From a virus (lineage: Duplodnaviria > Heunggongvirae > Uroviricota > Caudoviricetes), in IMG/VR virus record IMGVR_UViG_2529292759_000004: DNA of 21,500 bases, one strand, 5' to 3'. Position 1 is the first letter of the stretch, and the number at the start of each line of letters is the position of its first letter. The position numbers and the translations under genes are program-made. Positions 1,509 to 2,355 of the stretch are shown here, in pieces. The notes below the pieces were generated by a model that saw nothing but the letters and a program-made list of their open reading frames with translations, made no database searches and was not told the DNA's origin.

Positions 1509-1748
1509 CTATTTCCTGCGCATGTCACGTAACTTCTTAATGTGTTCTGCCGTTTCGATCTCTTCTGCTATCCGATCTGCATCAGCTTTATTCACAGGTT
1601 CAAAGTCATGATTAAAGCGGAACATGCTGGCGATACATGTTCTGCCTTTTCGGATGTAGTGAACTTTGTTGTGGGTAGAACGCAGGATTTTGCAGGGAGT
1701 GCCGTGGTGGTCGACGTACCAGGTGTTAGGGTCAATCACTCTGAACAT
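1509..1748 (-). CDS. Hypothetical small protein (79 aa), accessory early-left operon
   Basis: ATG-initiated ORF co-directional with neighbours; overlaps the upstream ASCH-like gene by 17 nt; no family recognised. Confidence 0.45.
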   Translation of the reverse strand: MFRVIDPNTWYVDHHGTPCKILRSTHNKVHYIRKGRTCIASMFRFNHDFEPVNKADADRIAEEIETAEHIKKLRDMRRK

Positions 1749-2058
1749 TCTTGACCTTGTGTTGTGCGGATTGATATTCAGTGCTGATATTCACCTTTAT
1801 AGCGAACACCTTTACCGGTTTATCGCCAAAGTGCGGATGTGTGATTGTCTTCACTTCATATCCGTCATACGGAACATCAATTCTGCGACTGGAATCGTCG
1901 CGCTTCGGATATCCCTTTGTGATAATCAGGCGGTCATATTCCCGGAACATAATTCGCTTATTCCAGTAGTCATTACACAAGCGATACTCTTCCGTTTTCT
2001 CTCCGCGAATCATGGCATCGAAGTATTCACTTTTAACAGCAAGTTGCAGGTTAGCCAT
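1732..2058 (-). CDS. ASCH/PUA-like domain protein (108 aa from the ATG)
   Basis: Motif ...KSEYFDAMIRGEKTEEYR... resembles ASCH-fold proteins (my assignment from motif only); ATG at 2056-2058 overlaps the stop of the upstream TraR-like gene (ATGA coupling). The ORF track start at 2061 is GTG. Confidence 0.55.
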   Translation of the reverse strand: MANLQLAVKSEYFDAMIRGEKTEEYRLCNDYWNKRIMFREYDRLIITKGYPKRDDSSRRIDVPYDGYEVKTITHPHFGDKPVKVFAIKVNISTEYQSAQHKVKNVQSD

Positions 2059-2279
2059 CACTTAATCCCCCTTTGTTTGCGGATAAGCTCCAGATCTTGC
2101 TGGCAACTGGCGCAAGTCCGACAACCCTGAACGGCCAGGCGTCTTCGTTCATCTATCGGATCGCCACACTCACAACAATGAGTGGCAGATACAGCCAGGT
2201 AGTTCAGGCGGCGCATTTTTATTGCTGTGTTGCGCTGTAATTCTTCTATTTCTGATGCTGAATCAATGATGTCTGCCAT
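2058..2279 (-). CDS. TraR/DksA-family C4 zinc-finger protein (73 aa)
   Basis: CxxC-(17)-CxxC signature (HCCECGDPIDERRRLAVQGCRTCASC), same size and layout as F-plasmid TraR; ATG at 2277-2279. Confidence 0.7.
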   Translation of the reverse strand: MADIIDSASEIEELQRNTAIKMRRLNYLAVSATHCCECGDPIDERRRLAVQGCRTCASCQQDLELIRKQRGIK

Positions 2280-2334
2280 CTTTCATTAATCCCTGAACTG
2301 TTGGTTAATACGCTTGAGGGTGAATGCGAACAAT

Positions 2335-2355
2335 AAAAAAGGAGCCTGTAGCTCC
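2335..2355 (-). terminator. Rho-independent terminator (minus strand)
   Basis: Hairpin GGAGC-ctgta-GCTCC (plus 2341-2355) followed on the minus strand by a U6 run (plus A-run 2335-2340); lies just after the frame-shifted continuation of the orf61-like gene. Confidence 0.5.

What the first reader, a model, noticed from the sequence alone, without database searches (positions are those of the whole stretch)
1509..2355. Accessory trio between xis and the orf61 block: TraR/DksA-like zinc finger, ASCH-like protein and a small unknown protein, downstream of a terminator
Lambda carries ea8.5/ea22 in this interval. Here three tightly packed genes replace them (ATGA overlap at 2058; 17-nt overlap at 1732-1748). 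The first is a 73-aa TraR-type C4 zinc-finger protein; TraR-family proteins bind the RNA polymerase secondary channel and mimic DksA/ppGpp. It is paired with a putative ASCH (RNA-binding, PUA-like) protein and a 79-aa unknown. A terminator at 2335-2355 precedes the trio, so expression probably depends on N antitermination, i.e. an early-lytic host-takeover module.
Basis: partly seen in the sequence, partly recalled or inferred. Interest (0 to 1): 0.55.

Follow-up and report, generated by a model that had tools for sequence, protein, structure and literature searches.

The report
Known lambdoid exo-xis accessory genes
The three small genes are real, but they are ordinary, already-annotated and independently shuffled accessory genes of a phage-21-like prophage, and the zinc-finger one is the counterpart of lambda Orf73, whose effect on host RNA polymerase was shown experimentally in 2022.

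Summary
Three packed minus-strand genes lie between xis and the orf61 block, preceded by a hairpin plus U-run.

- The window is 100% identical here to Escherichia phage ev207 and to about 590 E. coli prophages, and 97.7% identical to phage 21. RefSeq already names all three genes.
- The 73-aa protein does not replace lambda genes. It is 90% identical to lambda Orf73, at the same position and behind the same conserved terminator. That terminator was described as predicted "t2" in 2014.
- Lambda Orf73 is a tested TraR homologue. It binds RNA polymerase, inhibits rRNA and ribosomal-protein promoters, slows host growth and raises burst about 4-fold (mBio 2022). All its functional motifs are kept here.
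- The three genes do not form a module. They assort independently, recombination breakpoints sit at the gene borders, and the ASCH gene also occurs in nin regions.

Novelty is low. The biochemical roles of the ASCH-like and DUF4222 proteins remain open.

The parts
2058..2279 (-). orf73 orthologue: 73-aa TraR-family C4 zinc-finger protein that binds the RNA polymerase secondary channel
   Evidence: PF01258 E 6.7e-9 and phrog_54 'DksA-like zinc-finger protein'. 66/73 identical to lambda Orf73. Aligns over its full length to F-plasmid TraR in PDB 5w1s/6n57. Keeps DxxDxA (D3, D6, A8), CxxC-17-CxxC (C35, C38, C56, C59), the two extra Cys of lambda Orf73 (C36, C53) and R46/R47, which align with TraR R48/R49.
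1732..2058 (-). Mini-ASCH (PUA-like) protein, 108 aa from ATG at 2058 (GTG at 2061 is an alternative start). The conserved core is residues 1-~94 (window 1768-2058). The last 14 aa (1732-1767) derive from a recombination junction.
1509..1748 (-). DUF4222 protein (RgdR family), 79 aa: predicted five-strand small beta-barrel (residues 10-52) plus a long C-terminal helix (residues 54-78)
2331..2357 (-). Intrinsic-terminator-like hairpin plus U-run. It equals the predicted terminator 't2' of lambda and phi24B, between orf61 and orf73.
   Evidence: Found by the scan. Fold about -9 to -11 kcal/mol. Identical in lambda and phage 21. The same sequence is listed as t2 in PMC4195576, which reports lower mRNA for the genes downstream of it in lambda.
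1753..1767 (-). Junction between the ASCH-core module (1768-2058) and the DUF4222 module (1519-1752). It creates the ASCH C-terminal tail and the 17-nt overlap.
   Evidence: blastn breakpoints against representative IMG/VR loci. Most family members are 93-96 aa and lack the tail. The tail has low pLDDT.
6761..7033 (-). N-like antiterminator gene upstream in the same leftward operon
   Evidence: phrog_271 'anti-termination protein N-like' E 2.3e-24. Annotated as such in phage ev207.
7132..7177 (-). nutL-like site: boxA-like GGCTCTTTAAA (7177-7167) and boxB-like hairpin TGGCTGAAAAGCCA (7145-7132)
   Evidence: Read directly from the sequence. The assignment is by resemblance to the lambda boxA/boxB consensus, which is established knowledge; it was not tested here.

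Best explanation
This interval is the promoter-distal, non-essential 'exo-xis' part of the leftward early (pL) operon of a phage-21-like (Jouyvirus) lambdoid prophage that integrates at icd. It holds three independent accessory cassettes, not a co-adapted unit.

1. The orthologue of lambda orf73. Its product is a TraR-family protein. It inserts its N-terminal helix (DxxDxA) into the RNA polymerase secondary channel. Without ppGpp, it inhibits rRNA and ribosomal-protein promoters, slowing host growth and raising phage yield. This was shown for lambda Orf73; for this 90%-identical copy it is inferred.

2. A roughly 94-residue mini-ASCH domain with an intact GxKxxExR pocket. It most likely binds, or acts on, a nucleotide or RNA base. 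This is inferred from fold and motif only.

3. A DUF4222 protein of the RgdR family: a small Tudor/SH3-like beta-barrel with a C-terminal helix. It most likely acts as a protein- or nucleic-acid-binding modulator of host gene expression. This is inferred from RgdR and from the fold.

Transcription comes from pL. RNA polymerase modified by N at nutL reads through the conserved terminator (t2) upstream of orf73, so these genes are made early after induction or infection, at lower level than the genes upstream of t2. The overlaps between the genes result from modular recombination at gene borders.
For: Identity and annotation: 100% identical to phage ev207 and PhiR63_2, 97.7% to phage 21. All three genes are named in RefSeq.

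Lambda comparison: orf73 and the terminator are conserved, and only the downstream genes differ.

Orf73 function: PMC9239242 reports RNAP binding, rrn and r-protein promoter inhibition, slower growth and about 4-fold higher burst, with pL expression at 5-20 min. The functional residues are kept here.

Terminator: PMC4195576 lists the identical sequence as t2 and reports lower downstream mRNA in lambda.

ASCH. The motif definition is from PMC6803910.

DUF4222. RgdR function is from PMC3378721.

Independence of the cassettes:
- IMG/VR architectures include Orf73>DUF4222 (about 65 loci), Orf73>ASCH>DUF4222 (about 32, some contigs retrieved twice), Ea22>ASCH>Orf55 (about 30) and Orf73>Ea22>ASCH>DUF4222 (3).
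- Breakpoints lie at window 2054-2068, 1768 and 1752/1519.
- The ASCH gene lies between P and NinB in Erwinia, next to the nin genes in Kosakonia, and after Ea22 in Klebsiella.
- Among 5,426 complete E. coli genomes, orf73 is in 3,310, DUF4222 in 2,347, the ASCH core in 1,487 and the whole arrangement in 593.

N and nutL lie upstream.
Confidence: 0.8

Rival explanations
1. One reading: the three genes form one co-adapted host-takeover module, in which the TraR-like protein is functionally paired with the ASCH protein and the small protein.
For: The genes are tightly packed on the same strand with overlapping stop and start codons. The arrangement is frequent: 593 of 5,426 complete E. coli genomes.
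Against: Each gene occurs often without the others. Homology breakpoints coincide with the gene borders. The overlap is produced by a junction-derived 14-aa tail that most family members lack. The ASCH gene lies in the pR nin region in Erwinia and Kosakonia prophages, with neither partner nearby. Lambda has orf73 with entirely different downstream genes.
Confidence: 0.07
2. The ASCH-like and/or DUF4222 genes are lysogenic-conversion ('moron') genes that act on the host while the prophage is repressed. The DUF4222 protein, for example, could be a global regulator like RgdR, rather than an early-lytic function.
For: RgdR, the only studied DUF4222 protein, acts from a resident island on LEE1, type III secretion and motility (PMC3378721). 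The genes sit next to int-xis, where accessory cargo accumulates. A promoter overlapping t2 was predicted in lambda and phi24B.
Against: The genes lie inside the pL transcription unit with no convincing promoter of their own. The promoter scan found none upstream on the minus strand between 1000 and 5200, apart from one weak site inside int. The predicted p1 hexamers are further from consensus here (TTATCA / TATTGT). There are no PADLOC defence hits. The window protein is only 24% identical to RgdR and lacks its RGD motif.
Confidence: 0.15
3. One or more of the three ORFs is not a real gene but a chance ORF.
For: They are short. Lambda's own orf73 went unannotated in NC_001416.
Against: pN/pS is 0.23-0.34. 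The families hold hundreds to more than 1,200 cluster representatives. The structure predictions are confident. Shine-Dalgarno-like sequences precede the ASCH and DUF4222 starts. Lambda Orf73 has been detected and assayed (PMC9239242).
Confidence: 0.02

Closest known systems
Bacteriophage lambda Orf73 (exo-xis region), a TraR homologue
   Same: Same position (after orf61 and the same terminator), same length, 66/73 identical. It has the same DxxDxA motif, six cysteines and RR pair.
   Different: Seven substitutions (H27Y, Q28L, I30V, V49A, E60Q, S67R, S72I), none in residues known to be functional. The downstream neighbours differ: ASCH and DUF4222 here, ea22, ea8.5 and orf55 in lambda.
F-plasmid TraR (PDB 5w1s, 6n57) and the DksA/TraR family
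   Same: Aligns over its full length to TraR (E 1e-4). It has the CxxC-17-CxxC zinc finger, and the N-terminal acidic DxxDxA tip is in the window sequence (motif defined in PMC9239242). Pfam PF01258 is above threshold.
   Different: Low identity to TraR itself. It scores below the NCBIfam TIGR02419 cut-off (55.1 against 59.7). It has two extra cysteines, and lambda Orf73 activated the tested promoters weakly if at all (PMC9239242).
RgdR (ECs1581) of E. coli O157:H7 O-island 51 / PICI, the studied DUF4222 protein
   Same: Same Pfam domain. It aligns over 68 residues, covering the barrel and the following helix. Both are encoded on mobile elements.
   Different: 24% identity. The window protein has no RGD motif and no equivalent of K35. 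It is 79 aa against 99 aa, and it sits in a lambdoid pL operon rather than a P4-like island.
ASCH domain proteins (E. faecalis 3iuw, P. horikoshii PH0355 2z0t, E. coli YqfB ac4C amidohydrolase, Z. mobilis ASCH RNase, human EOLA1)
   Different: The core is much smaller (about 94 aa). It is below the Pfam threshold. It has the canonical Glu at motif position 24, whereas YqfB has Thr at that position (seen in the alignment; that this Thr is catalytic is my recollection, not checked here), so amidohydrolase activity of the YqfB type is not implied. There are no biochemical data.
The lambdoid exo-xis region as studied in lambda and phi24B
   Same: Same operon position. The conserved orf60a-orf63-orf61-t2-orf73 block is followed by variable genes before xis.
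   Different: This phage-21-type version carries ASCH plus DUF4222 in the variable part. Those two proteins are not covered in the modelling survey PMC8614690.

Membership tests
TraR subfamily of DksA/TraR C4 zinc-finger proteins | Pfam PF01258 zf-dksA_traR above the gathering score | tested here: met
   36.0 bits against a cut-off of 24.9, E 6.7e-9.
TraR subfamily of DksA/TraR C4 zinc-finger proteins | NCBIfam TIGR02419 (phage/conjugal plasmid TraR family) above its cut-off | tested here: not met
   55.1 bits against a cut-off of 59.7, a near miss; E 8.7e-15.
TraR subfamily of DksA/TraR C4 zinc-finger proteins | CxxC-17-CxxC zinc finger, N-terminal DxxDxA tip, and Arg pair equivalent to TraR R48/R49 | tested here: met
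   C35/C38 and C56/C59 with 17 residues between them; D3, D6, A8; R46/R47 aligned to TraR R48/R49. The motif definitions are from PMC9239242.
TraR subfamily of DksA/TraR C4 zinc-finger proteins | Binds the RNAP secondary channel and inhibits rRNA promoters without ppGpp | not testable with these tools
   Shown for the 90%-identical lambda Orf73 (PMC9239242). Inferred for this copy.
ASCH domain (PUA-like superfamily) | Pfam PF04266 above the gathering score | tested here: not met
   14.3 bits against 21.2, matching residues 7-29 only. 5 of 60 distant relatives reach E <= 0.01. The profile finds no ASCH entry in PDB sequences.
ASCH domain (PUA-like superfamily) | ASCH beta-barrel fold with a helix between strands 1 and 2 | tested here: met
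ASCH domain (PUA-like superfamily) | Conserved GxKxxExR motif in the alpha1-beta2 cavity | tested here: met
   G19-E-K21-T-E-E24-Y-R26. It is invariant in 30 close relatives. In 60 relatives at 36-54% identity, K21 is invariant and G19, E24 and R26 are at least 90% conserved. The motif is defined in PMC6803910.
ASCH domain (PUA-like superfamily) | RNA or nucleotide binding, or catalysis | not testable with these tools
DUF4222 / RgdR family | Pfam PF13973 above the gathering score | tested here: met
   68.5 bits against 27, E 3.6e-19. RgdR itself scores 82 bits.
DUF4222 / RgdR family | RGD motif (RgdR residues 20-22), reported as important for activation of type III secretion | tested here: not met
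   Extending the alignment (which starts at RgdR Y24 / window Y11) leftward without gaps puts RgdR R20-G21-D22 opposite window P7-N8-T9. The window protein is therefore a family member but not an RgdR orthologue.
Rho-independent terminator | GC-containing hairpin immediately followed by a U-run on the transcribed strand | tested here: met
   8-pair stem (4 G-C pairs), 3-nt loop, then UUUUUUAUU. Identical in lambda and phage 21.
Rho-independent terminator | Actually terminates, and is overridden by N | not testable with these tools
   The only support is indirect: lower orf73, ea22 and ea8.5 mRNA in lambda (PMC4195576).
Co-inherited functional gene module (the 'trio') | The genes co-occur and are inherited as a unit across relatives | tested here: not met
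   There are at least four alternative arrangements, with breakpoints at the gene borders. Prevalences are unequal: 3,310, 2,347 and 1,487 genomes for the single genes against 593 for the arrangement. The ASCH gene occurs in nin regions.

The most novel reading that the evidence does not exclude
The DUF4222 barrel may be a Tudor-like RNA-polymerase-binding domain. Its best compact structural matches include the RNAP-binding Tudor domains of UvrD and PcrA, as well as CarD, Mfd and NusG-KOW. If so, the variable end of the exo-xis region would be a collection of interchangeable RNA-polymerase modulators: Orf73 in the secondary channel, DUF4222 on the beta lobe, and lambda Orf55, which has been modelled as Gp2-like. 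This would also explain why RgdR has pleiotropic transcriptional effects with only weak, non-specific DNA binding. The mini-ASCH would add an RNA- or nucleotide-directed activity to the same early programme.
Probability: 0.08. Interest if true: 0.55.

Novelty: already known. Interest (0 to 1): 0.15.

Why it matters
It matters little as a discovery. The sequence, the gene calls, the family names, the terminator and the mechanism of the TraR-like protein are all already on record. Two points remain useful.

Second, two very common prophage proteins still have no assigned biochemical activity: DUF4222 in about 43% and the mini-ASCH in about 27% of complete E. coli genomes. The only experimental lead is RgdR, a virulence regulator in EHEC. 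Defining what these proteins bind would clarify how lambdoid prophages, including Stx phages, reprogramme their hosts early after induction.

Tried and rejected
- Sequence searches of the PDB with the ASCH-like and DUF4222 proteins, both as single sequences and as profiles, gave nothing relevant.
- hhalign of a 60-member ASCH-like profile against E. coli YqfB aligned only the motif region, E 0.14.
- A Pfam scan of 60 distant ASCH-like relatives gave only marginal ASCH and DUF3850 hits.
- A Pfam scan of longer family members, looking for informative domain fusions, found only an Ea22-ASCH fusion that reflects gene adjacency.
- PADLOC defence models gave no hits.
- An Rfam scan of window 1-8000 found only the known cIII thermoregulator.
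- I tried to establish whether the hairpin is the classical lambda tL3 terminator. The lambda GenBank and RefSeq records carry no terminator features. Papers that mention tL3 give no sequence. A literal sequence search found nothing, and a review was not held. The equation with tL3 remains a recollection only. The equation with the predicted 't2' of Bloch et al. 2014 is verified.
- Rejected, chance ORFs: see pN/pS and conservation.
- Rejected, the DUF4222 protein as an RgdR orthologue: 24% identity and no RGD motif.
- Rejected, a YqfB-type amidohydrolase function for the ASCH protein: motif position 24 is Glu here and Thr in YqfB.

Full report
**What is in the sequence.** On the minus strand the window reads int (1-1143), xis (1133-1369), then a 79-aa ORF (1509-1748), a 108/109-aa ORF (1732-2058/2061) and a 73-aa ORF (2058-2279). 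Further along lie orf61-, orf63- and orf60a-like ORFs, then exo and bet. The 17-nt overlap at 1732-1748 is real. The junction at 2058 reads GTGATG, so it is a TGATG or GTGA overlap, not ATGA. A hairpin with an 8-pair stem and a 3-nt loop at 2357-2339, followed by UUUUUUAUU, precedes the 73-aa gene.

**Where it comes from.** The 1.1-kb region is 100% identical to Escherichia phage ev207 and PhiR63_2 and 97.7% identical to classical phage 21. It matches about 590 complete E. coli genomes over at least 80% of its length, most of them at 99% identity or more. In these records the three genes are already annotated as 'DUF4222 domain-containing protein', 'ASCH domain-containing protein' and 'TraR/DksA family transcriptional regulator' or 'DksA-like zinc-finger protein'. 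The phage is a Jouyvirus, a phage-21-like lambdoid that integrates at icd.

**The zinc-finger protein is lambda Orf73.** Lambda's RefSeq record annotates nothing between ea22 and orf61. An ORF list nevertheless shows a 73-aa ORF there, at lambda 30392-30613, and it is 66/73 identical to the window protein. A three-way DNA alignment shows that orf73 and its upstream region are almost identical in lambda, phage 21 and the window, and that the hairpin and its U-run are identical. Homology to lambda ends a few bases before the orf73 stop codon. What is replaced is ea22, ea8.5 and orf55.

Lambda Orf73 has been characterised (Gopalkrishnan et al., mBio 2022, PMC9239242).
- It binds RNAP.
- It inhibits rRNA and ribosomal-protein promoters in vitro and in vivo, without ppGpp.
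- It slows host growth and raises phage yield about 4-fold.
- It is expressed from pL 5-20 min after induction.

The window protein keeps the following:
- the DxxDxA tip (D3, D6, A8);
- the CxxC-17-CxxC finger (C35, C38, C56, C59);
- the two extra cysteines peculiar to lambda Orf73 (C36, C53);
- the Arg pair aligned with TraR R48/R49.

It passes Pfam PF01258 and narrowly misses NCBIfam TIGR02419.

**The terminator is also on record.** Bloch et al. 2014 (PMC4195576) list exactly this sequence as predicted terminator t2, between orf61 and orf73, in both lambda and phi24B. They report lower mRNA for orf73, ea22 and ea8.5 than for upstream genes in lambda, but not in phi24B. They also predicted a promoter overlapping it. 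Its hexamers carry two changes in the window (TTATCA and TATTGT). I could not verify whether t2 is the classical tL3.

Upstream, on the same strand, the window has an N-like gene (6761-7033) and a boxA/boxB-like nutL (7177-7132). N-dependent read-through is therefore the expected mode of expression. This is an inference from established lambda biology.

**The middle protein.** Sequence evidence for ASCH is weak.
- Pfam gives 14.3 bits against a cut-off of 21.2, covering the N-terminal 23 residues only.
- There are no sequence hits in the PDB.
- hhalign against YqfB aligns only residues 10-26.

The ASCH signature GxKxxExR (PMC6803910) is present as G19-x-K21-x-x-E24-x-R26. It is invariant in close relatives. 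In a set of 60 relatives at 36-54% identity, K21 is invariant and G19, E24 and R26 are at least 90% conserved.

The family is large: 1,232 representatives of 50%-identity clusters at E <= 1e-3. Typical members are 93-96 aa. The window copy has a 14-aa, low-confidence C-terminal tail. I file it as a divergent mini-ASCH. What it binds is unknown. Because it has the canonical Glu where YqfB has Thr in the motif, a YqfB-like amidohydrolase activity is not implied.

**The small protein.** It is a clear DUF4222 member (E 3.6e-19). The one studied member of that family is RgdR (ECs1581), on O-island 51 of E. coli O157:H7, an element of the PICI (phage-inducible chromosomal island) type. RgdR activates LEE1 and type III secretion, represses motility, and binds DNA only weakly and non-specifically (PMC3378721, PMC10877973, PMC6092414).

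**Is it a module?** No.
- Among about 160 IMG/VR loci retrieved with the ASCH and DUF4222 profiles, tblastn shows several arrangements: Orf73>DUF4222 without ASCH (about 65), Orf73>ASCH>DUF4222 (about 32, some contigs counted twice), Ea22>ASCH>Orf55 (about 30) and Orf73>Ea22>ASCH>DUF4222 (3).
- blastn breakpoints fall at the gene borders: the orf73 block ends at 2054-2068, the ASCH core spans 1768-2057/2061, and the DUF4222 block spans 1519-1752. The ASCH tail and the 17-nt overlap are therefore junction products.
- In Erwinia rhapontici the ASCH gene sits between replication gene P and ninB. In Kosakonia it sits in the nin region. In Klebsiella it follows an Ea22-like gene.
- Prevalence in 5,426 complete E. 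coli genomes is 3,310 (orf73), 2,347 (DUF4222), 1,487 (ASCH core) and 593 (the whole arrangement).

**Are the ORFs real genes?** Yes. pN/pS is 0.23-0.34 for all three, the proteins are conserved across genera, and the fold predictions are confident.

**Verdict.** It is wrong about replacement of lambda genes by the zinc-finger gene and about a functional trio. Everything that can be said with confidence was already known or annotated. The open questions are the biochemical activities of the mini-ASCH and DUF4222 proteins. The most novel reading still allowed is that DUF4222 proteins are Tudor-like RNAP binders, and it has only generic fold support.

Noticed in passing
window 2473-2655 (-) and about 2376-2500; compare L001 4005-4300 (phage 21) and L002 3005-3330 (lambda): The orf61 region differs by frameshifts among the three phages. 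The window lacks 4 nt (GGAT) that are present in phage 21 and lambda, and lambda has A7 where phage 21 and the window have A6 in a homopolymer run. As a result, phage 21 has one continuous ORF (annotated as 71 aa, weak ZapA-like Pfam hit). Lambda splits it into orf61 plus an overlapping TTG ORF. The window truncates it at 2473, leaving the conserved C-terminal coding part (…DICRSVLKKHRETVTL…KER) without a start codon.
   Followed up: partly
window 2286-2381 (-): A 31-aa ORF (MNMKSKIIRELQAPFLLFAFTLKRINQQFRD) spans the terminator hairpin. It is conserved in lambda and phage 21, and its phage 21 counterpart is annotated as a 29-aa 'putative secreted protein'. Whether it is translated is unknown.
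   Followed up: no
window 1463-1501: An AT-rich inverted repeat with a 16-pair stem lies between the DUF4222 stop codon and xis. It is flagged as terminator-like on the plus strand (followed by AATTTTT). On the minus-strand RNA it does not form the predicted minimum-energy structure, and the fold is not exceptional (z = -1.5).
   Followed up: partly
window 5080-5138 (-): Rfam RF01804, the lambda cIII thermoregulator RNA element, scores 88.5 bits (E 4e-21) at the start of the kil/cIII region.
   Followed up: no
window 5156-5173 (-): A second terminator-like hairpin (7-pair stem followed by TTTTTCGTT) lies between the ea10-like gene and kil/cIII. It is another pL-operon terminator that N-modified polymerase would have to pass.
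   Followed up: no
L166 4001-4285 (Erwinia rhapontici) and L167 4001-4282 (Kosakonia sacchari): The same mini-ASCH gene (about 73-76% protein identity) sits in the rightward early operon, in the nin region between P and NinB/NinE. It therefore moves between the two early accessory regions of lambdoid phages.
   Followed up: partly
L164 12988-16437 (phage ev207, outside the window) and window 15076-16218 (-): The identical phage ev207 carries a sitABCD iron/manganese transporter in its b region. Within the window, a 380-aa OmpC-like porin gene lies downstream of Q. Both are cargo genes of this prophage type.
   Followed up: no
L002 2693-2914 (lambda 30392-30613): Lambda orf73, although characterised experimentally, is not annotated in NC_001416.1 or J02459.1. 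This can mislead comparisons made from the reference annotation.
   Followed up: yes
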